DNA from: a virus
Taxonomy: Duplodnaviria > Heunggongvirae > Uroviricota > Caudoviricetes
Reading direction: 5' to 3' (one strand)
IMG/VR virus record: IMGVR_UViG_2582581022_000016
Length of the DNA: 27,569 nucleotides
A program made the translations under genes and the position numbers. The notes beneath the pieces were generated by a model. The model did no database searches. It was given only the letters and a program-made list of their open reading frames with translations, and was not told the DNA's origin. Within the stretch, counting starts at the first letter, position 1, and every line of letters starts with the position of its first letter. Of the stretch, positions 13,044 to 21,356 are shown piece after piece.

Positions 13044-13214
13044 ATGTTTGTGAAACCTGTTAAAGGGCGGTCAGTGCCTGACCCTGCCCGCGGCGACCTT
13101 TTGCCAGCCGAAGGGCGAAATGTTGACGAGAACAACTACTGGCTGCGCCGTGAAGCAGCGGGTGATATCCGGCGCGTGAATAAAAAGGTGAATACCGATG
13201 ACGATAAGCTTTAA
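13044..13214 (+). CDS. Small conserved phage protein (56 aa, DUF2635-like), missing from the ORF track
   Basis: ATG 13044 to TAA 13212..13214, read manually: MFVKPVKGRSVPDPARGDLLPAEGRNVDENNYWLRREAAGDIRRVNKKVNTDDDKL. Resembles the small proteins found just upstream of sheath genes in Mu-like tail modules. Overlaps the sheath start. Confidence 0.5.
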   Translation: MFVKPVKGRSVPDPARGDLLPAEGRNVDENNYWLRREAAGDIRRVNKKVNTDDDKL

Positions 13215-14694
13215 CACCATTCCGTCGAATACGCTGGTTCCGTTGTTTTATGCGGAAATGGATAACCAGGCGGCGAATACTGCACAGGACAGCGGAGCAT
13301 CGCTGCTGATTGGTCATGCCAATAACGGTGCAGAAATTGTTGCCAACAGTCTGGTACTGATGCCGTCGGCAGACTATGCCCGCCAGATTTGTGGTGCGGG
13401 AAGTCAGCTGGCGCGTATGGTCGAGGCTTATCGCCAGACTGACCCGTTTGGTGAACTGTATGTGATTGCCGTTCCTGAATCCACAGGCGCGGCGGCAACG
13501 GTTACGCTGACGGTGACCGGGGCGGCAACCGAAACCGGCACGGTGAATGTGTATGTGGGACGTACCCGCGTGCAGGCACCGGTGACCAACGGCGATAACG
13601 TCACGATGATTGCCAGTAGTATTCAGGATGCCATCAATGCCGTTCCGACCCTGCCGTTTACGGCTTCATCTTCGGCAGGCGTGGTCACACTGACCGCGCG
13701 TCATAAGGGGCTTTGCGGGAATGAAATTCCTGTCAGCCTCAATTACTACGGCTTTGGTGGGGGCGAAGTGCTGCCAGCGGGCGTACAGATTGCCGTGGCG
13801 ACGGGTACCGCCGGAACGGGTGCTCCGGTTCTCACCGGCGCGGTGGCTGCAATGGCGGATGAGCCGTTTGATTATATCGGCCTGCCGTTCAACGACACGG
13901 CCTCCGTTAACACGCTGGTGACCGAGATGAACGATACCAGCGGTCGCTGGAGCTATGCGCGTCAGCTGTATGGTCATGTGTATACGGCAAAGATCGGCAC
14001 GCTGTCAGAACTGGTGACCGCAGGTGACCAGTTTAACCAGCAGCACATTACCCTGGCGGGGTACGAAAAAGACACCCAGACGCCTGCCGACGAGCTGGCG
14101 GCAAGCCGTACCGCCCGCGCAGCGGTGTTTATCCGCAACGATCCGGCACGTCCCACGCAGACCGGTGAGCTGGTGGGTATGCTGCCTGCGCCGAAGGGGA
14201 AACGGTTCACGATGACCGAACAACAGACCCTGCTGTCTCATGGCGTGGCAACGGCGTATGTCGAAAGCGGGGTACTGCGCATTCAGCGTGATGTCACCAC
14301 GTACAGGAAAAACGCTTACGGGGTTGCGGATAACAGCTACCTCGACAGCGAGACGCTGCATACCAGCGCGTATGTACTGCGCAAACTGAAATCCGTCATT
14401 ACCAGTAAGTACGGGCGTCACAAGCTTGCCAGTGATGGTACCCGCTTTGGTCCCGGTCAGGCGATTGTCACCCCGGCGGTGATCAAAGGGGAACTGCTGG
14501 CAACCTACCGTCAGCTCGAGCGTGCGGGGATCGTGGAAAACTACGAACTGTTCAAGCAGTACCTGGTTGTGGAGCGTGATGCCAGCGATCCGAACCGCCT
14601 GAACACGCTGTTCCCGCCTGACTATGTTAACCAGTTGCGTGTCTTTGCCGTGGTTAACCAGTTCCGTCTTCAGTATTCAGAGGAGTCTGCATAA
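13198..14694 (+). CDS. Contractile tail sheath protein (Mu gpL-like)
   Basis: 498 aa, directly followed by a tube-sized gene, a frameshifted chaperone and a tape-measure gene. Confidence 0.85.
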   Translation: MTISFNTIPSNTLVPLFYAEMDNQAANTAQDSGASLLIGHANNGAEIVANSLVLMPSADYARQICGAGSQLARMVEAYRQTDPFGELYVIAVPESTGAAATVTLTVTGAATETGTVNVYVGRTRVQAPVTNGDNVTMIASSIQDAINAVPTLPFTASSSAGVVTLTARHKGLCGNEIPVSLNYYGFGGGEVLPAGVQIAVATGTAGTGAPVLTGAVAAMADEPFDYIGLPFNDTASVNTLVTEMNDTSGRWSYARQLYGHVYTAKIGTLSELVTAGDQFNQQHITLAGYEKDTQTPADELAASRTARAAVFIRNDPARPTQTGELVGMLPAPKGKRFTMTEQQTLLSHGVATAYVESGVLRIQRDVTTYRKNAYGVADNSYLDSETLHTSAYVLRKLKSVITSKYGRHKLASDGTRFGPGQAIVTPAVIKGELLATYRQLERAGIVENYELFKQYLVVERDASDPNRLNTLFPPDYVNQLRVFAVVNQFRLQYSEESA

Positions 14695-15050
14695 TGGCCC
14701 GTATCGGGGGAACCTGTTATTTCAAAATTGACGGTCAGCAGCTATCGCTGACCGGCGGCATTGAGGTGCCCATGAACAGGACGGTCAATGATGACATCAT
14801 CGGCCTGGACGGCTCAGTGGACCGCAAGGAAACTCACCGTGCGCCTTATGTCAAAGGGACCTTCAAGGTGCCGAAGAATTTTCCGGTGAACAAAATCACC
14901 TCGTCTGATGAGATGACAATCACTGCCGAGCTGGCGAACGGTCAGGTCTATGTACTGTCGTCTGCCTGGCTGCACGGCGAAGCGAACCATAATGCCGAAG
15001 AAGGCACGGTTGATCTTGAGTTCCACGGTGAAGAAGGGGATTACCAGTAA
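14694..15050 (+). CDS. Tail tube protein (Mu gpM-like)
   Basis: 118 aa; start overlaps the sheath stop (ATAATGG). Confidence 0.8.
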   Translation: MARIGGTCYFKIDGQQLSLTGGIEVPMNRTVNDDIIGLDGSVDRKETHRAPYVKGTFKVPKNFPVNKITSSDEMTITAELANGQVYVLSSAWLHGEANHNAEEGTVDLEFHGEEGDYQ

Positions 15051-15319
15051 TGAAAGAGCTTGAGTTAAAGAAACCGATTACCGCTCATGGCGAGACACTC
15101 TCCGTACTGGAGTTTGATGAGCCCACCGGGAAAGATGTCCGCGAGCTGGGATATCCCTACCAGATGAATCAGGATGAGTCCGTCAGACTTCTGGCGCATG
15201 TGGTATCGAAATACATCGTGCGGCTGGCGAAAGTGCCGCAAAGCTCTGTCGACCAGATGTCTCCGGCAGATCTGAATGCAGCGGCGTGGCTTGTGGCCGG
15301 TTTTTTCCTCCAGGCCTGA
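15050..15319 (+). CDS. Tail assembly chaperone, short (G-like) form
   Basis: 89 aa; overlapping start with the tube gene. Ends at TGA 15317..15319 just after a slippery heptamer. Confidence 0.7.
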   Translation: MKELELKKPITAHGETLSVLEFDEPTGKDVRELGYPYQMNQDESVRLLAHVVSKYIVRLAKVPQSSVDQMSPADLNAAAWLVAGFFLQA

Positions 15320-15468
15320 CGGCTGAATACCTCACTGATCGCTTCTTTGACTGCGCCAGTTACTGGCGCATTAATCCTTTCGAATTGCTGAATATGCCGA
15401 TCAGTGAAATTCCCTTACTGGTCAGTCAGGCAAACAGGATAGAGCAGGAGAAACGCACACATGGCTGA
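15050..15468 (+). CDS. Tail assembly chaperone, long (GT-like) form made by -1 programmed frameshift at 15301..15307
   Basis: The -1 frame ORF (15286..15468) is open across the zero-frame stop and ends just inside the tape-measure start (15461). Predicted fusion about 139 aa. Confidence 0.6.
15301..15307 (+). other. Slippery heptamer T TTT TTC for -1 ribosomal frameshifting
   Basis: Zero-frame codons GGT TTT TTC CTC CAG GCC TGA; after a -1 slip the reading is F F P P G L T A E Y, matching the downstream ORF. Confidence 0.6.
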
Positions 15469-17293
15469 ATTTGAGCTTAAGGCGTTGATCACCGGTGTCG
15501 ACAGGCTTTCTCCCGCGCTGTCGAAAATGCAAAAGAAAATCCGGGGATTTAAACGCCAGGCGGAAGAAGCGTCACAGGGTGGGCTGGCGCTTGGTGGCGG
15601 ACTGGCAGCGGGTCTGACGCTTTCCCTGAAATCTTATGCCGATCAGGAAAACGCCGCCACCGGGCTGAAAGTCGCCATGATGGATGCGAACGGCGAGGTT
15701 GGAAAGAGCTTTCAGGACATCAATAAACTGGCTATTGGCCTGGGTAACCAGCTACCTGGTACAACGGCTGATTTCCAGAACATGATGCAGATGCTGGTGC
15801 GTCAGGGGATCCCGGCAGAAAACATTCTGGGTGGTGTGGGTAAAGCGACAGCTTATCTTGCGGTACAACTGAAAAAAACACCGGAAGCGGCTGCTGAGTT
15901 TGCTGCAAAGATGCAGGATGCTACCGGAACGGCGTCAGAAGACATGATGGGGCTGTTCGACACTATCCAGAAGGCGTTTTATCTGGGCGTTGACGATACC
16001 AACATGTTGTCCTTCTTCACTAAAACCAGTTCTGTTCTGAAGATGGTGAACAAGGATGGTCTTCAGGCTGCGCAGAGCCTTGCCCCCATCAGCGTCATGA
16101 TGGATCAGATGGGGATGAACGGGGAGTCGGCAGGTAATGCCCTGCGAAAAGTTATCCAGTCCGGATTAAGCGTTAAGAAAATCAGGGACGTTAATAAAGT
16201 TATGGCCCGCCAGAAACTCGGGGTACAGCTCGATTTTACTGACGGCAAAGGAAGTTTTGGCGGTCTTGATAACATGTTCAGGCAACTGGCAAAGCTGCGA
16301 AAACTGACCGACGTTAAGCGAACAGGTGTACTTAAGGCAATATTTGGTGATGATGCCGAAACCCTTCAGGTGGTCAATGCACTAATCGATAAAGGAAAGG
16401 ATGGCTACGATCAGATCCAGCAGAAGATGAATAAACAGGCCAGCCTGAATAAACGTGTTCAGGCACAGCTTGGTACGCTGTCCAACCTGTGGGAGGCAAT
16501 GACAGGGACCGCAACTAACGGCCTTGCGGCTATTGGCGGCGCATTTTCTGGTGACGCTAAAAATATCACACAATGGCTGGGGGAGTTGGGGGAGAAATTC
16601 ACGAAGTTTGCGGATGAAAATCCCCGGGTTATTCGCGGCGTCGTCGGGCTTGCTGCCGGTCTTGCGATTCTGAAACTGGGATTGATGGGCGTGGGCAGTG
16701 CCATCAGTATTGTCAGCAGGATTATGTCGATGACGCCGATTGGCATGATTGCGACGGCGATTGCTCTGGCTGCGGGATTAATTATCACTAACTGGGATGT
16801 TGTCGGACCTTATTTTAAGAAGCTCTGGGAAACCATTGGTCCTTATTTTGAGGCTGGCTGGGAACTTCTGAAGAAAGTTTTTGCCTGGTCGCCGCTGGGA
16901 ATGGTGATCAATAACTGGGGACCGGTTGTTAAGTGGTTTCAGGATATGTGGGACAAGCTGAAGCCAATTATTGAGTGGTTTACCGACAGTTCCGGTGACA
17001 CGGTCGATGCCATTAACTCTGCGCAGTGGGGCGCGGGTGCTTATGATGCTTATGGGACGGGAATACCGGCGCGGGGATACACACCTTATCCGGCGGTGGA
17101 TCCGGCTCAGTCAAACAACGCCTCCGATGCCACAGGCTCGAATCCCTTCATGATTAACAAAGCTTCTGTGCCAAAAGTTGATGGTGAGATCAAGGTATCT
17201 TTTGTGAATTCGCCTCCGGGTATGCGGGTTATGGAAACGCGATCCAGCGGTTTTGATGTCAGCCATGATGTTGGCTATACGCGGTTCAGGTAG
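15461..17293 (+). CDS. Tail tape measure protein
   Basis: 610 aa. Ala/Gly-rich helical N-half, hydrophobic segment (VIRGVVGLAAGLAILKLGLMGVGSAISIV...), Trp-rich C-terminal part. Sits after the frameshifted chaperone. Confidence 0.85.
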   Translation: MAEFELKALITGVDRLSPALSKMQKKIRGFKRQAEEASQGGLALGGGLAAGLTLSLKSYADQENAATGLKVAMMDANGEVGKSFQDINKLAIGLGNQLPGTTADFQNMMQMLVRQGIPAENILGGVGKATAYLAVQLKKTPEAAAEFAAKMQDATGTASEDMMGLFDTIQKAFYLGVDDTNMLSFFTKTSSVLKMVNKDGLQAAQSLAPISVMMDQMGMNGESAGNALRKVIQSGLSVKKIRDVNKVMARQKLGVQLDFTDGKGSFGGLDNMFRQLAKLRKLTDVKRTGVLKAIFGDDAETLQVVNALIDKGKDGYDQIQQKMNKQASLNKRVQAQLGTLSNLWEAMTGTATNGLAAIGGAFSGDAKNITQWLGELGEKFTKFADENPRVIRGVVGLAAGLAILKLGLMGVGSAISIVSRIMSMTPIGMIATAIALAAGLIITNWDVVGPYFKKLWETIGPYFEAGWELLKKVFAWSPLGMVINNWGPVVKWFQDMWDKLKPIIEWFTDSSGDTVDAINSAQWGAGAYDAYGTGIPARGYTPYPAVDPAQSNNASDATGSNPFMINKASVPKVDGEIKVSFVNSPPGMRVMETRSSGFDVSHDVGYTRFR

Positions 17294-17356
17294 TGTACAA
17301 AATGATTAATGTGTTTTTGTCTGGCATAATTTGGGTTTTCAGCTTTAAGTAGTTAA

Positions 17357-17362
17357 TATAAT
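17357..17362 (+). promoter_or_regulatory. Perfect -10 hexamer TATAAT, 30 bp upstream of the insertion gene's likely start; candidate autonomous promoter
   Basis: Read directly; no convincing -35 identified, so this is only a candidate. Confidence 0.3.
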
Positions 17363-17392
17363 CATTCCTTACAAATGATTGAAGGGATGATT

Positions 17393-17887
17393 ATGCGTAT
17401 CTTTGTTTTTTTTATATCTGCACTTTTATCTTTTAACTTGGCTGCGGAAGAGTGTAAGTTCAGCTTTAATGAGTCAGAATTAATCTCTTCTATAGGTATT
17501 GCACCAGTTAAGCAAGAGATAATAAAGGATGAAGGAATAACTAAGCGGCAATATGAATTCAGAAGAGAATTATCTTCTGAAGAAATGCTTAGTGATGACG
17601 CTGATGAAAAATATGAGCCGCAGTTTTATATATCTGTTTATAATCCATCATGCCCACAAAAGGTTATTGTTTGGTTTTTCAAAGACAATAAAAACACAAT
17701 GGATTTAAGTAATGAGGTCCTTGCTGGTAGAGCGTTCAAGTATTTAACTGGTGTTAATGAAAGTATTTTTGAAAATAAAATGAAAAAGTTTTTAAAGGTA
17801 CAGTCATTTGAATCTTTTGATGAAAGGACAGATTCTAAATTTATAAAGAGTGGTGATATTTATTCCATTGATGTTCAACTCAGATAG
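17393..17887 (+). CDS. AT-rich cargo gene encoding a signal-peptide-bearing secreted/periplasmic protein of unknown function (about 164 aa)
   Basis: ORF track gives 17375..17887; ATG 17393 follows GAAGGGA (17381..17387). Predicted signal peptide MRIFVFFISALLSFNLA|AEE. Two Cys in the mature part. Base composition is visibly far more A/T-rich than flanking tail genes. No family recognised. Confidence 0.6.
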   Translation: MRIFVFFISALLSFNLAAEECKFSFNESELISSIGIAPVKQEIIKDEGITKRQYEFRRELSSEEMLSDDADEKYEPQFYISVYNPSCPQKVIVWFFKDNKNTMDLSNEVLAGRAFKYLTGVNESIFENKMKKFLKVQSFESFDERTDSKFIKSGDIYSIDVQLR

Positions 17888-17906
17888 TAATTAAAAATAT
17901 TAGGTT

Positions 17907-17963
17907 CCCGCCACATCTTCTGCGATGTAAATAACTGACAAAGCAGATTTGGCGGGTTTTTTT
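17907..17963 (+). terminator. Terminator-like element after the cargo gene (CCCGCCA ... TGGCGGG then TTTTTTT)
   Basis: GC arms at 17907..17913 and 17950..17956 with a long loop containing a nested ACATC/GATGT hairpin, then a 7-T tract at 17957..17963. Confidence 0.4.
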
Positions 17964-17978
17964 GTATCCGGAGTTTAT

Positions 17979-19307
17979 ATGACGTGGAAAGACAGGCTTC
18001 AGGATGCGTCATTTCGCGGCGTACCGTTTAAGGTTGAAGAAGAAAGTGCGGGAACCGGTCGCCGTGTGGAAACACACGAATATCCGAACCGCGACAAGCC
18101 CTATACCGAAGATCTGGGAAAAGTCACTTTCCGCCCGTCCATCACAGCTTATGTGGTGGGAGATGACTGCTTTGACCAGCGCGATCGCCTGATTGAAGCG
18201 CTGAATAAACCCGGTCCCGGCACGCTTGTCCACCCGACATATGGTGAGCTGAAAGTCTGTGTTGACGGGGAAGTTCGGGTCAGCACATCGAAAAGTGAAG
18301 GGCGTATTGTCCGCTTTGACCTGAAGTTTGTCGAAGCAGGAGAACTCTCTTACCCCACATCAGGTGCGGCGACGGCGCAAACGCTGATGTCATCCTGTTC
18401 TGCACTGGATGACTGCATCAGTGACAGCTTCAGCGGTTTCAGTATCGATGGTGTGGCGGATTTCGTGCAGAACGACGTCGTCGGTAATGCCAGCACAATG
18501 CTTGGGTATGTTTCTGATGCGATGAAAGTGGTGGATTCTGCCGTATCGGATGCCGCCAGGCTGTTGCAGGGGGATATCTCGGTACTTCTGCCGCCGCCAT
18601 CGTCAGGCAAAAATTTCGTTGAGCAGGTGCAGAAAATGTGGCGTACCGGGAAACGCCTTTATGGTAACGCCAGCGACCTGGTCACCATGATCAAAACGCT
18701 TTCCGGTGTCAGCCTCGGCAGCGATCTGCAACCGCGCGGCGTCTGGAAAACGGACAGTAAAACCACCGCCACGGCGACGCAGCAGCGTAACGTGGTTGCC
18801 AGCACCCTTCGTACGACCGCAATCAGCGAAGCGGCGTATGCCGTCACCCGATTGCCTGCGCCAACAATTTCTGCGGTGATGCAGAATGCCGCAGTGGGGC
18901 AGGCAACAACACCCGCGCAGAGCACTGGCTGGCCTTCCGTCACGCATCCGGCACTGAACAATGCACCGGCGGTGAAAAACACGGTTGACCTGCCGACGTG
19001 GGAAGAACTGACTGACATTCGCGACACACTGAATACGGCAATTGATAAGGAGTTGTCCCGTACAACCAGTGATGCGCTGTTTCTGGCGCTGCGCCGGGTG
19101 AAAGCAGATCTGAATGCGGATATCAACACGCGCCTTGAACAGTCTGCACGGATCATTCAGCGCACGCCGGATGAGGTTTTACCCGCGCTGGTGCTGGCGG
19201 CGACCTGGTTTGATAACGCGGCGCGTGACGCGGACATTATCCGGCGTAATGCCATTACACATCCCGGCTTTGTGCCGGTGATCCCTCTGAAGGTGCCAGT
19301 GCAATGA
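17979..19307 (+). CDS. DNA circulation protein (Mu gpN-like) of the baseplate/tail tip
   Basis: ORF track gives 17949; ATG 17979 follows GGAG (17971..17974). N-terminus MTWKDRLQDASFRGVPF...THEYPNRDKPYTEDLG matches the Mu N-like DNA-circulation N-terminal domain as I recall it. Confidence 0.75.
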   Translation: MTWKDRLQDASFRGVPFKVEEESAGTGRRVETHEYPNRDKPYTEDLGKVTFRPSITAYVVGDDCFDQRDRLIEALNKPGPGTLVHPTYGELKVCVDGEVRVSTSKSEGRIVRFDLKFVEAGELSYPTSGAATAQTLMSSCSALDDCISDSFSGFSIDGVADFVQNDVVGNASTMLGYVSDAMKVVDSAVSDAARLLQGDISVLLPPPSSGKNFVEQVQKMWRTGKRLYGNASDLVTMIKTLSGVSLGSDLQPRGVWKTDSKTTATATQQRNVVASTLRTTAISEAAYAVTRLPAPTISAVMQNAAVGQATTPAQSTGWPSVTHPALNNAPAVKNTVDLPTWEELTDIRDTLNTAIDKELSRTTSDALFLALRRVKADLNADINTRLEQSARIIQRTPDEVLPALVLAATWFDNAARDADIIRRNAITHPGFVPVIPLKVPVQ

Positions 19308-20383: not shown

Positions 20384-20931
20384 TGAGGACGATTGAAGCC
20401 ATGCAGCGACAACTTCTCGGCCTGATTGGGCGGGCCGTTGTGAAAAGCATCAGTGCCGCCACGAAATGTCAGACCGTGGATGTGTCCCTGATTGCCGGTG
20501 AACCCAAAGCAGGGGTTGAACATCTTGAACCCTACGGTTTTACCGCAAGGGCAAACAGCGGTGCGGAAGCGGTGGTGTTGTTTCCGGATGGCGACCGTTC
20601 TCATGCGGTGGTTGTTACGGTGTCGGACCGGCGCTACCGCCTGAAAGGGCTGCAGACGGGTGAGGTGGCTGTCTATGACGATCAGGGGCAGTCCGTGACG
20701 CTGACCCGGGAGGGGATCGTGGTGGACGGTGCAGGTAAAACGATCACGTTTCGCAATTCACCTAAAGCACGTTTTGAAATGGACCTGGAAGTGACAGGAC
20801 AGGTGAAAGACCTGTGCGACTCCGGCGGCACCACCATGTCAGCGATGCGGCTTGCCTATAACGGGCATCGTCACAGAGAGAACGGTCAGGGCAGTAATAC
20901 CGACAAACCTGATAAAGCGATGGAGGCATGA
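20383..20931 (+). CDS. Baseplate assembly/spike protein (Mu gp45-like, gpV-like)
   Basis: 182 aa; overlapping start (TGATGA); position in the conserved baseplate order. Confidence 0.75.
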   Translation: MRTIEAMQRQLLGLIGRAVVKSISAATKCQTVDVSLIAGEPKAGVEHLEPYGFTARANSGAEAVVLFPDGDRSHAVVVTVSDRRYRLKGLQTGEVAVYDDQGQSVTLTREGIVVDGAGKTITFRNSPKARFEMDLEVTGQVKDLCDSGGTTMSAMRLAYNGHRHRENGQGSNTDKPDKAMEA

Positions 20932-21356
20932 TGGAACTGTGGCTGACGGTGAACGGTAAACGCACCTGCGCCAGCGCACCGCTGGATCCGCTGACCCGCG
21001 CCGTGGTGATTTCCCTGTTTACCTGGCGGCGGGCGGAGCCTGATGACAACGCCGACGTCCCGATGGGATGGTGGGGGGATACCTGGCCTGCGGTACAGAA
21101 TGACCGTTACGGCTCCCGACTGTGGCTGCTTCAGCGCAGCAAACTGACCAATCAGCTGGTGCAGACGGTAAGGGGGTATATCCGCGAATGCCTGCAATGG
21201 ATGATTGATGATGGCGTGGTGTCCCGTATTGATCTGGATATCCGCCGCACCGGGATTAATGAACTGGGTAACAGTATCACTCTCTGGCGTCGTGACGGAC
21301 CGGTAATGATTTCTTTTGATGATCTGTGGAGTGCGATAACGCATGGCGGACAGTGA
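20928..21356 (+). CDS. Baseplate wedge protein (Mu gp46-like, gp25/W-like)
   Basis: 142 aa; overlapping start; position in the conserved baseplate order. Confidence 0.65.
   Translation: MMELWLTVNGKRTCASAPLDPLTRAVVISLFTWRRAEPDDNADVPMGWWGDTWPAVQNDRYGSRLWLLQRSKLTNQLVQTVRGYIRECLQWMIDDGVVSRIDLDIRRTGINELGNSITLWRRDGPVMISFDDLWSAITHGGQ

What the first reader, a model, noticed from the sequence alone, without database searches (positions are those of the whole stretch)
15050..15468. Programmed -1 frameshift (T TTT TTC) generating a G/GT-type tail assembly chaperone pair
The chaperone ORF ends at TGA 15317..15319. Sixteen nucleotides before the stop is the canonical slippery heptamer T TTT TTC in the right phase (zero-frame codons TTT TTC). 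The -1 frame is open from there to 15468, ending just inside the tape-measure start. This is the conserved translational recoding between tube and tape-measure genes of long-tailed phages, here in a Mu-like contractile tail module.
Basis: partly seen in the sequence, partly recalled or inferred. Interest (0 to 1): 0.45.

Follow-up and report, generated by a model that had tools for sequence, protein, structure and literature searches.

The report
Phage tail chaperone programmed frameshift
This is the usual ribosomal -1 frameshift that lets a tailed phage make a short and a long tail-assembly chaperone from one gene; it is real and strongly conserved, but it is a known mechanism that public annotations of this prophage family omit.

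Summary
An 89-codon ORF (15050-15319, Pfam PF10109 tail assembly chaperone) lies between the tail tube and tape-measure genes of an SfV/SfI/SfII-like prophage. It carries an in-phase T_TTT_TTC at 15301-15307. The -1 frame runs open from there to TGA 15466-15468, overlapping the tape-measure ATG (15461) by 8 nt.

In-phase heptamers alone are common: 22 in this window. The comparative evidence is what decides the case.
- 96 distinct relatives, down to 36% protein identity, keep an in-phase T6N run at the same codons.
- In a 29-sequence set the two synonymous positions needed for slippage are invariant, while other conserved residues use 2-5 codons.
- The -1 extension is under purifying selection (dN/dS 0.02-0.49).
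- 55 of 91 loci have no start codon for it.
- The fused protein aligns full-length with phage P2 E+E' (95.7% probability), with the slip site at the same position. P2 is annotated with a -1 frameshift at TTTTTTG.

No conserved stimulatory structure lies next to the site.

Verdict: real, and a new member of a known kind. SfV RefSeq, the one E. coli RefSeq genome inspected and the other phage records inspected do not annotate the fusion. Low interest.

Side observation: a hairpin at 15352-15370 with strongly constrained codon choice, function unknown.

The parts
14694..15050 (+). Tail tube gene (118 aa). Its stop TAA overlaps the chaperone ATG (TAATG).
   Evidence: PF10618 Tail_tube, E=3.3e-33. 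Annotated as tail tube / Mup40 M in related phages.
15050..15319 (+). Zero-frame tail assembly chaperone ORF ('G', equivalent to P2 gpE), 89 aa, ending ...VAGFFLQA*.
   Evidence: PF10109 Phage_TAC_7, E=1.9e-16. Annotated 'phage tail assembly protein' / 'small tail protein E' in relatives.
15301..15307 (+). Slippery heptamer T_TTT_TTC. Zero-frame codons are GGT TTT TTC. tRNA-Phe in the P and A sites re-pairs to TTT TTT.
   Evidence: An in-phase T6N run is kept in 96 distinct relatives. The wobble T of the preceding codon and the TTT codon are invariant in 29/29 sequences.
15307..15468 (+). -1-frame extension ('T', equivalent to P2 E'): 53 codons (PPGLTAEYLTDRFFDCASYWRINPFELLNMPISEIPLLVSQANRIEQEKRTHG) plus TGA. 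With residues 1-86 of the chaperone it gives the 139-aa GT fusion.
   Evidence: Translation. Conserved peptide in all relatives. dN/dS 0.02-0.49 and third-position variability. hhalign against P2 E': probability 89%, E=2.3e-6. PHROG 32181 'unknown function'.
15461..17293 (+). Tape measure protein gene (610 aa). Its ATG overlaps the T stop by 8 nt. The Shine-Dalgarno AGGAG is at 15446-15450.
   Evidence: PF10145, E=9.8e-27. The 8-nt overlap is present in 21 of the 29 relatives and in P2.
15352..15370 (+). Perfect hairpin/palindrome TGCGCCAG-TTA-CTGGCGCA inside the T extension, 44 nt after the heptamer. Clade-specific, role unknown. It is not required for the frameshift across the family.
   Evidence: Codon choice is strongly constrained: GCC 35/36 against 24% elsewhere, CGC 33/36 against 23% elsewhere. 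Only the loop varies. One G-C to A-U compensatory change is seen in L137/L143.
15314..15320 (+). 5' arm (GCCTGAC) of a predicted long-range helix that starts 6 nt after the heptamer. A candidate stimulator, not an established one.
   Evidence: MFE fold of 15296-15480: -58.4 kcal/mol, z=-2.96. Kept in the nearest clade, with the 5-bp core in 14-16 of 16 group-I sequences. No covariation, and not family-wide.
15425..15431 (+). 3' arm (GTCAGGC) of the same predicted long-range helix.

Best explanation
Ribosomes translating the 89-codon chaperone gene mostly terminate at TGA 15317, giving the short chaperone G (about 10 kDa).

A minority slip back one base when tRNA-Phe occupies both the P site (UUU) and the A site (UUC) on U_UUU_UUC (15301-15307), re-pairing to UUU_UUU. 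These ribosomes then read CCT CCA GGC... in the -1 frame as far as TGA 15466. The result is a 139-aa fusion, GT, with the same N-terminal 86 residues and a 53-residue C-terminal T domain.

By analogy with lambda G/GT and P2 E/E+E', both products coat the tape-measure protein through the shared G part. The T domain recruits the tube subunit so that the tail polymerises to the correct length. Neither protein stays in the virion. The frameshift frequency fixes the G:GT ratio.

Shown here: the signal, its phase, its conservation, the protein-coding nature of the -1 extension, its dependence on upstream translation, and homology to P2 E+E'.

Inferred: that slippage is ribosomal, its efficiency (probably a few per cent), and the binding partners.
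For: - **Sequence and phase:**
- **Family and synteny:** PF10109 chaperone, flanked by sheath (PF04984), tube (PF10618), tape measure (PF10145) and a Mu-N-like DNA_circ_N protein.
- **Heptamer conservation:** an in-phase T_TTT_TTY/G at the same G/R/N/S/P/D-F-F/L codons in 29 + 4 + 63 distinct loci. These span Enterobacterales, Pseudomonas, Burkholderia, Bordetella, Derxia and a Methylococcales MAG, down to 36% identity.
- **Synonymous sites:** in the 29-sequence set the codon before is always NNT (GGT 22, CGT 3, AAT 4) and the first Phe codon is always TTT (29/29). Eleven other near-invariant residues use 2-5 synonymous codons.
- **Coding signature of the -1 frame:** column entropy by codon position is 1.03/0.82/1.45 bits, like the G ORF at 0.86/0.70/1.51. 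Pairwise dN/dS is 0.02-0.49 with dS near or at saturation. The zero-frame tail after the heptamer varies from 3 to 21 residues and is not conserved.
- **No independent start:** 55 of 91 loci have no ATG/GTG/TTG in the -1 frame before the conserved motif.
- **Homology to P2:** the GT profile against P2 E+E' gives hhalign probability 95.7%, E=9.3e-9, over 120 columns with GF[FL] aligned. T alone against E' gives 89%, E=2.3e-6.
- **P2 annotation:** the P2 RefSeq record annotates a -1 frameshift at its GGT TTT TTG, products of 91 and 142 aa, and the same 8-nt overlap with its tape-measure gene (PMC3091744).
- **Motif competence:** U_UU.U_UU.C and U_UU.U_UU.U are frameshift-prone in E. coli without stimulators (PMC4066793).
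- **tblastn:** the fusion matches 23 phage records, always as two pieces.
Against: - There are no expression data for this element, so the two products have not been observed.
- No conserved stimulatory structure lies 5-9 nt downstream. The local fold has z=0.11 and relatives give nothing consistent. P2 is reported to lack one too (PMC3091744).
- Three of 80 near-identical prophage copies (L030, L061, L067) have GGG instead of GGT. That reduces the heptamer to a U_UUY tetramer.
- One distant, UNVERIFIED phage record (L116) lacks the T run altogether, although a T-like domain is present further downstream.
- Conservation of a T run cannot by itself separate ribosomal slippage from RNA-polymerase slippage.
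Confidence: 0.9

Rival explanations
1. The same GT protein arises by transcriptional slippage. RNA polymerase inserts one extra U at the T6 run, and standard translation of that minority mRNA gives the fusion.
For: - The signal is a homopolymer run: T6 here, T7 in the SfIV/ST64B/phiP27 group.
- A weak hairpin immediately upstream scores as terminator-like, which recalls hairpin-stimulated slippage.
- Sequence conservation alone cannot tell the two mechanisms apart.
Against: - Efficient bacterial RNAP slippage needs runs of about 9 A or T, matching the 9-10 bp hybrid. It is undetectable at T5C5 without context features (PMC5009743).
- The upstream hairpin is not conserved: 62.5% of cells paired against 61.3% in shuffles.
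- The run is kept in X_XXY_YYZ phase in all 96 loci that have it, and in P2-type members it ends in G (T6G).
- In three near-identical prophage copies the run is shortened (T5 in two of them) or shifted by one base out of the heptamer phase, yet an in-phase U_UUY tetramer remains, which is a ribosomal motif (PMC4066793).
- The homologous P2 site is annotated and described as translational (PMC3091744).
Confidence: 0.05
2. The -1 ORF is an independent small gene (60 aa) initiated at GTG 15286, as annotated in phage vB_EcoM-689R6 and collected as PHROG 32181.
For: A GTG lies in the -1 frame 15 nt before the heptamer. One GenBank record calls it a 'hypothetical protein'. PHROG 32181 matches at E=4e-40.
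Against: - 55 of 91 relatives have no ATG/GTG/TTG anywhere in the -1 frame before the conserved motif.
- Where an NTG exists, it is a by-product of the invariant zero-frame Trp codon.
- There is no Shine-Dalgarno sequence upstream of 15286.
- Peptide conservation in the -1 frame begins at the heptamer, not at the GTG.
Confidence: 0.01
3. No recoding takes place. The 141-nt stretch is a non-coding spacer or a decayed remnant, and the open -1 frame and heptamer are coincidental.
For: In-phase slippery heptamers are frequent by chance: 22 in this window. SfV RefSeq, the one E. coli RefSeq (PGAP) record inspected and most phage records inspected leave the stretch unannotated.
Against: - Purifying selection acts on the -1 frame.
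- The T peptide is conserved across proteobacterial classes.
- Nucleotide-level conservation of the heptamer.
- Homology of T to P2 E'.
- The T stop and tape-measure start overlap by 8 nt in 21 of 29 relatives.
Confidence: 0.02

Closest known systems
Phage P2 gpE / gpE+E' (-1 frameshift at T_TTT_TTG in the FETUD tail operon)
   Same: - Same Pfam family for the short product: PF10109.
- Same position between the tube and tape-measure genes.
- Same slip codons (GGT TTT TTN) at the homologous alignment column.
- Nearly the same sizes: 89/139 aa here, 91/142 aa in P2.
- Same 8-nt overlap of the extension's stop with the tape-measure ATG.
- The extension is distantly homologous.
- No nearby stimulatory hairpin (PMC3091744).
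   Different: - The last base of the heptamer is C here and G in P2, so the A-site tRNA is Phe rather than Leu.
- The surrounding tail module has Mu/SfV-type sheath, tube and DNA-circulation genes, not P2 FI/FII/U/D.
- The T extension does not reach Pfam PF06528 (Phage_P2_GpE) by hmmscan.
- Sequence identity to P2 E+E' is only about 21%.
Phage lambda gpG / gpGT (-1 frameshift at G_GGA_AAG)
   Same: Same logic and genomic position. Two products share an N terminus at a fixed ratio, act as chaperones for the tape-measure protein and tube polymerisation, and are absent from virions (PMC5009743).
   Different: - Different slippery sequence and tRNAs (Gly/Lys).
- No detectable sequence similarity was tested or found.
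- Lambda has a non-contractile tail.
- The reported G:GT ratio is about 30:1, with P2-type sites 2-3 times more efficient (PMC5009743).
Phage Mu gp41 and its frameshift extension
   Same: Same Mu-like gene order (gp38-L-M-chaperone-tape measure-N). Mu gp41 hits PF10109 just below its cut-off (E=2.5e-5; 24.7 bits against 25) as well as PF23746.
   Different: In Mu the extension lies in the +1/-2 frame and the -1 frame is closed. The literature describes a -2 shift (PMC2628397, PMC5009743). Mu gp41 is 144 aa and has no T6 run at the site.
E. coli dnaX and IS911/IS3 -1 frameshift signals
   Same: An X_XXY_YYZ heptamer with tandem tRNA slippage in E. coli.
   Different: Those signals use an upstream Shine-Dalgarno-like element and/or a downstream hairpin or pseudoknot at 5-9 nt. 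No such conserved stimulator was found here.

Membership tests
Tail assembly chaperone pair made by programmed frameshift (lambda G/GT, P2 E/E+E' type) | The gene lies between the major tail/tube gene and the tape-measure gene. | tested here: met
   Tube 14694-15050, chaperone 15050-15319, tape measure 15461-17293.
Tail assembly chaperone pair made by programmed frameshift (lambda G/GT, P2 E/E+E' type) | [quoted passage not shown] | tested here: met
   T_TTT_TTC at 15301-15307, in phase, 16 nt before the stop. Conserved in 96 distinct loci.
Tail assembly chaperone pair made by programmed frameshift (lambda G/GT, P2 E/E+E' type) | An overlapping downstream ORF in the shifted frame that codes for protein, lacks its own start, and ends at or near the tape-measure start. 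| tested here: met
   dN/dS 0.02-0.49 and codon periodicity. 55/91 loci have no start codon. The stop overlaps the tape-measure ATG by 8 nt.
Tail assembly chaperone pair made by programmed frameshift (lambda G/GT, P2 E/E+E' type) | Both the short and the frameshifted long product are made in vivo at a fixed ratio, and both are needed for tail assembly. | not testable with these tools
   Needs western blot or mass spectrometry, plus genetics.
Pfam PF10109 Phage_TAC_7 (P2 gpE, gp41, gp14 family) | Score above the curated gathering threshold (25 bits). | tested here: met
   60.3 bits, E=1.9e-16, covering model positions 2-78 of 79.
P2 E+E' homologue, including the E' extension (PF06528) | The C-terminal extension is homologous to P2 E'. 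| tested here: inconclusive
   hmmscan against PF06528 gives no hit for the window sequence; one distant member reaches E=0.0098. Profile-sequence hhalign gives 89% probability, E=2.3e-6 for T against E', and 95.7% for the whole fusion.
Stimulated -1 PRF signals (dnaX / IS3 type) | A conserved stem-loop or pseudoknot 5-9 nt downstream, or a Shine-Dalgarno-like element 6-17 nt upstream. | tested here: not met
   The local downstream fold has z=0.11 and there is no consistent structure across 29 relatives. The upstream helix is no better than shuffles. A long-range helix at 6-nt spacing is predicted only in the nearest clade, without covariation.

The most novel reading that the evidence does not exclude
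In the SfV/E. coli clade, the rarely translated T region (15308-15460) may be an organised RNA domain that tunes the G:GT ratio or tape-measure expression. It is closed by a helix starting 6 nt after the slip site (15314-15320 with 15425-15431) and contains a hairpin with strongly constrained codon choice (15352-15370). That would be a long-range frameshift stimulator, or a stability or processing element, in a phage chaperone gene where none has been described. The hairpin could instead be a DNA-level palindrome bound by a protein.
Probability: 0.12. Interest if true: 0.5.

Novelty: new member of a known kind. Interest (0 to 1): 0.22.

Why it matters
The practical value is for annotation. Similar sequence occurs in 1,089 of 5,426 complete E. 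coli genomes. In every close-relative record inspected here (one E. coli RefSeq genome and the reference phages SfV, SfIV, phiP27 and ST64B, among others), the essential 139-aa GT product is missing. The 141-nt stretch is left as a gap, or called a 60-aa 'hypothetical protein' that seeded PHROG 32181 ('unknown function').

The analysis also shows that one slip site (NNT TTT TTN at the G-F-F/L codons) is shared between P2-type and SfV/Mu-type contractile tail modules across several proteobacterial classes. The site is therefore old. Mu itself has moved to a -2 solution.

Mechanistically nothing new is claimed.

Tried and rejected
- **Local stimulatory hairpin 5-9 nt downstream.** The 38-nt fold has z=0.11. 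Folds of 45 nt in 29 relatives show no common element.
- **Upstream hairpin plus T run as an intrinsic terminator or slippage stimulator** (scan hit at 15287-15299). Across 21 relatives 62.5% of cells pair, against 61.3% in shuffles. Rejected.
- **Independent initiation at GTG 15286.** Rejected.
- **Fused G-T proteins in the protein database** (P0001-P0006). Their junctions differ and carry several indels. They look like assembly errors, not natural in-frame fusions, and were not used as evidence.
- **The hairpin 15352-15370 as a repeated operator.** There is only one copy in the window.
- **Rfam.** No match above noise in 15200-15520.
- **The hairpin pausing a leading ribosome so that a trailing ribosome collides at the slip site.** The geometry is off by about 5-8 nt, and leading ribosomes are rare in this stretch. 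Not pursued.
- **A universal long-range helix closing the T region.** Predicted partners differ between clades.
- **Solved structures.** No sequence relative in the PDB. Structure prediction was not run because it would not bear on the recoding question.
- **Papers not held.** The SfV genome paper and the P2 frameshift paper (PMC134923, PMC135442) could not be read. Xu et al. 2004 was not looked up and is known here only through papers that cite it. I therefore could not check whether SfV is listed there.

Full report
**1. What is in the sequence**

- An ORF runs from ATG 15050 to TGA 15317-15319 (89 aa). Its last codons are GGT TTT TTC CTC CAG GCC TGA.
- T_TTT_TTC therefore occupies 15301-15307 in the X_XXY_YYZ phase, and its first base is 16 nt before the stop.
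- The -1 frame is open from 15178 to TGA 15466-15468.
- After a -1 slip the ribosome would read CCT CCA GGC CTG..., producing a 139-aa fusion: residues 1-86 of the ORF plus 53 new residues.
- The next gene starts at ATG 15461, so the two overlap by 8 nt (ATGGCTGA).
- The +1 frame is closed within 10 nt of the stop.

**2. Context**

Pfam identifies the neighbouring genes:
- a tail sheath (13198-14694)
- a tail tube (14694-15050)
- the ORF itself, as PF10109 'Phage tail assembly chaperone proteins, E, or 41 or 14' (60.3 bits)
- a tape-measure protein (15461-17293)
- a Mu-N-like DNA-circulation protein (17949-19307)

The DNA is 98-99% identical to the Shigella serotype-converting phages SfI, SfV and SfII and to E. 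coli phages SKA5 and vB_EcoM-689R6. Similar sequence is present in 1,089 of 5,426 complete E. coli genomes.

None of the inspected records annotates a frameshift. SfV RefSeq and one E. coli RefSeq (PGAP) genome leave a 141-nt gap. One phage record calls the -1 ORF a 60-aa hypothetical protein, which is what PHROG 32181 'unknown function' consists of.

**3. Is it more than chance?**

An in-phase slippery heptamer is not rare. One search counts 22 in the ORFs of this window. Among them, the one at 15301 has by far the longest -1 frame run past the zero-frame stop: 55 codons, 149 nt beyond it. One other motif, in a minus-strand ORF at 20886-21344, runs 47 nt past its stop and was not examined.

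The decisive evidence is comparative. I collected the region from four sources:
- nine phage records
- 25 loci from one-genome-per-species bacterial assemblies
- five more distant phages
- 80 viral contigs related to a divergent subgroup

After removing duplicates, 96 distinct loci carry an in-phase T_TTT_TT(C/T/G) at the same alignment position, which encodes [G/R/N/S/P/D]-F-[F/L]. They come from Escherichia, Shigella, Salmonella, Yersinia, Edwardsiella, Pantoea, Citrobacter, Pseudomonas, Burkholderia, Bordetella, Derxia and a Methylococcales MAG, with chaperone identity down to 36%.

In a 29-sequence set, the wobble base of the preceding codon is T in 29/29 whatever the amino acid (GGT 22, CGT 3, AAT 4). 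The first Phe codon is TTT in 29/29. Eleven other near-invariant residues of the same protein use 2-5 synonymous codons each. That is selection on the nucleotide sequence, not on the protein.

**4. Is the -1 ORF coding, and does it depend on the upstream ORF?**

- Translated in the -1 frame, all loci give an alignable 50-63-residue domain (consensus ...L....F..A.FWRINP.E.L..P.S...LL..QA.RI..E) that ends at or within a few bases of the tape-measure start.
- Column entropy by codon position is 1.03/0.82/1.45 bits, against 0.86/0.70/1.51 for the chaperone ORF.
- Nei-Gojobori dN/dS for 15 pairs is 0.02-0.49, with synonymous sites near or at saturation.
- The zero-frame continuation after the heptamer, by contrast, is 3 to 21 residues long and unconserved.
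- In 55 of 91 loci there is no ATG, GTG or TTG anywhere in the -1 frame before the conserved motif.
- The GTG at 15286 in this window is a by-product of the invariant zero-frame Trp codon, and it has no Shine-Dalgarno sequence.

The extension can therefore only be reached from the chaperone's reading frame.

**5. Relation to known systems**

The P2 RefSeq record annotates E (91 aa) and E+E' (142 aa, joined CDS, 'site of -1 translational frameshift'), followed by the tape-measure gene T, which overlaps E' by 8 nt. The P2 slip site is GGT TTT TTG, in phase.

A profile of 21 fused sequences from this family aligns with P2 E+E' over 120 columns (hhalign probability 95.7%, E=9.3e-9), with GF[FL] in the same column. 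The T-only profile aligns with E' alone at 89%, E=2.3e-6. Hmmscan against PF06528 does not reach significance for the window sequence.

This is therefore the P2-type recoding site sitting in a Mu/SfV-type tail module. In Mu itself the extension lies in the +1/-2 frame, in agreement with the -2 shift described in the literature (PMC2628397, PMC5009743).

The function is taken from lambda and P2. G and the G part of GT bind the tape-measure protein, T binds the tube subunit, and the ratio matters. P2-type sites are reported to be 2-3 times more efficient than lambda's (PMC5009743). U_UU.U_UU.C and U_UU.U_UU.U are among the heptamers that shift in E. coli without stimulators (PMC4066793).

One further observation fits a chaperone-tape measure partnership. 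Similarity to SfIV-type phages ends at about 15087, just inside the chaperone gene. PMC3851460 reports under 50% identity for both the chaperone (its ORF-12) and the tape-measure protein (ORF-13) between SfIV and SfI/SfII/SfV.

**6. Stimulators**

- The 38 nt after the heptamer fold no better than shuffles (z=0.11), and 29 relatives show nothing in common there.
- A terminator-like hairpin just upstream is not conserved.
- Folding the whole stretch 15296-15480 gives -58.4 kcal/mol, z=-2.96. The fold includes a 7-bp helix, 15314-15320 with 15425-15431, that starts 6 nt after the heptamer.
- That helix is kept in the nearest clade. Its 5-bp core is present in 14-16 of 16 group-I sequences, but both arms are constrained by overlapping coding and none of the seven pairs of that helix shows a change on both sides.
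- Other clades predict other partners.
- T regions are on average somewhat more structured than the upstream chaperone region: mean z -1.27 against -0.60 in 30 loci.

I treat the long-range helix as a lead, not a finding.

**7. A side observation**

The hairpin TGCGCCAG-TTA-CTGGCGCA (15352-15370) lies 44 nt after the heptamer.
- It is invariant in group I except for the loop base.
- Among 36 distinct loci encoding C-A-x-[YF]-W-R, Ala is GCC in 35/36 (24% elsewhere in the same genes), Arg is CGC in 33/36 (23% elsewhere) and Tyr is TAC in 29/31 (47% elsewhere).
- Two loci (L137, L143) replace the loop-closing G-C with A-U.
- Lineages that lost the Arg codon also relax the Cys and Ala codons.
- No G-U variants occur, so a DNA-level palindrome cannot be excluded.
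- The hairpin is absent from the SfIV/ST64B group, the Pseudomonas clade and P2, so the frameshift does not require it.

**8. Exceptions and caveats**

- Three of 80 near-identical prophage copies carry GGG instead of GGT. That leaves only a U_UUY tetramer. They may be decaying prophages or lower-efficiency variants.
- One UNVERIFIED Paraburkholderia phage record lacks the T run.
- Full-length 'fused' proteins in the metagenomic protein database are error-laden assemblies.
- Ribosomal and transcriptional slippage cannot be separated by sequence. I favour ribosomal slippage for four reasons: the run is only 6 nt, the phase is conserved, P2-type members end in G, and the homologous P2 site is described as translational.

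**9. Verdict**

The element is a well-understood kind of recoding. What is new is only that the fusion is not annotated in any of the records inspected for this widespread prophage lineage, and that the slip site is homologous to P2's. Confidence in a programmed -1 ribosomal frameshift producing G and GT is 0.9. Interest is low (0.22).

Noticed in passing
window 15352-15370: A perfect 8-bp hairpin/palindrome (TGCGCCAG-TTA-CTGGCGCA) inside the -1-frame extension. Its codon choice is strongly constrained: GCC 35/36 against 24% elsewhere, CGC 33/36 against 23% elsewhere. Only the loop varies, and one G-C to A-U compensatory change is seen. It is clade-specific, absent from the SfIV/ST64B/P2 types, and its function is unknown. 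It could act at the RNA or the DNA level.
   Followed up: partly
window 15296-15480: The whole stretch from the chaperone stop to the tape-measure start folds unusually well (-58.4 kcal/mol, z=-2.96). The fold includes a long-range helix, 15314-15320 with 15425-15431, that begins 6 nt after the slip site. It is conserved only in the nearest clade and its seven pairs show no change on both sides.
   Followed up: partly
window 17294-17948 (ORF 17375-17887): An AT-rich insert (30-32% GC against about 52%) between the tape-measure and DNA-circulation genes. It encodes a 170-aa protein with a hydrophobic N terminus and no Pfam hit. Among phage records it is present only in SKA5, and it is absent from SfV, SfI, SfII and vB_EcoM-689R6. 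It looks like a moron.
   Followed up: partly
L030, L061, L067 (positions about 1449-1458 of each locus): Three of 80 near-identical prophage copies have GGG instead of GGT before the Phe codons (GGG TTT TTC, or GGG TTT TTT C). This reduces the heptamer to a tetramer. They may be decaying prophages or tolerated low-efficiency variants.
   Followed up: no
L116 (Paraburkholderia phage IPK, UNVERIFIED record), about 840-1090: The chaperone ends ...GGC TTC TTC GGC... with no T run, and the -1 frame has stops just after it. A T-like domain (VFDLAHFWNVSP...) still lies in the -1 frame further downstream. The recoding site must be elsewhere, or the record has errors.
   Followed up: no
window about 15087 (similarity break with the SfIV/phiP27/ST64B group): The tube gene stays about 96% identical to SfIV, but similarity stops just inside the chaperone gene. 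PMC3851460 reports under 50% identity for both the chaperone and the tape-measure protein between SfIV and SfI/SfII/SfV, which fits a co-adapted pair exchanged together.
   Followed up: partly
proteins P0001-P0006: The metagenomic protein database holds singleton 'fused' or extended versions of this chaperone. Their junctions differ and carry several indels. They are probably noisy assemblies at the homopolymer, and could mislead a search for natural in-frame GT fusions.
   Followed up: yes
L201 (phage Mu) 3553-4131: In Mu the chaperone extension is open only in the +1/-2 frame, near a G-rich stretch (ACGGGGGCGAG). This agrees with the published -2 frameshift and contrasts with the P2-type -1 site in this Mu-like module.
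   Followed up: partly
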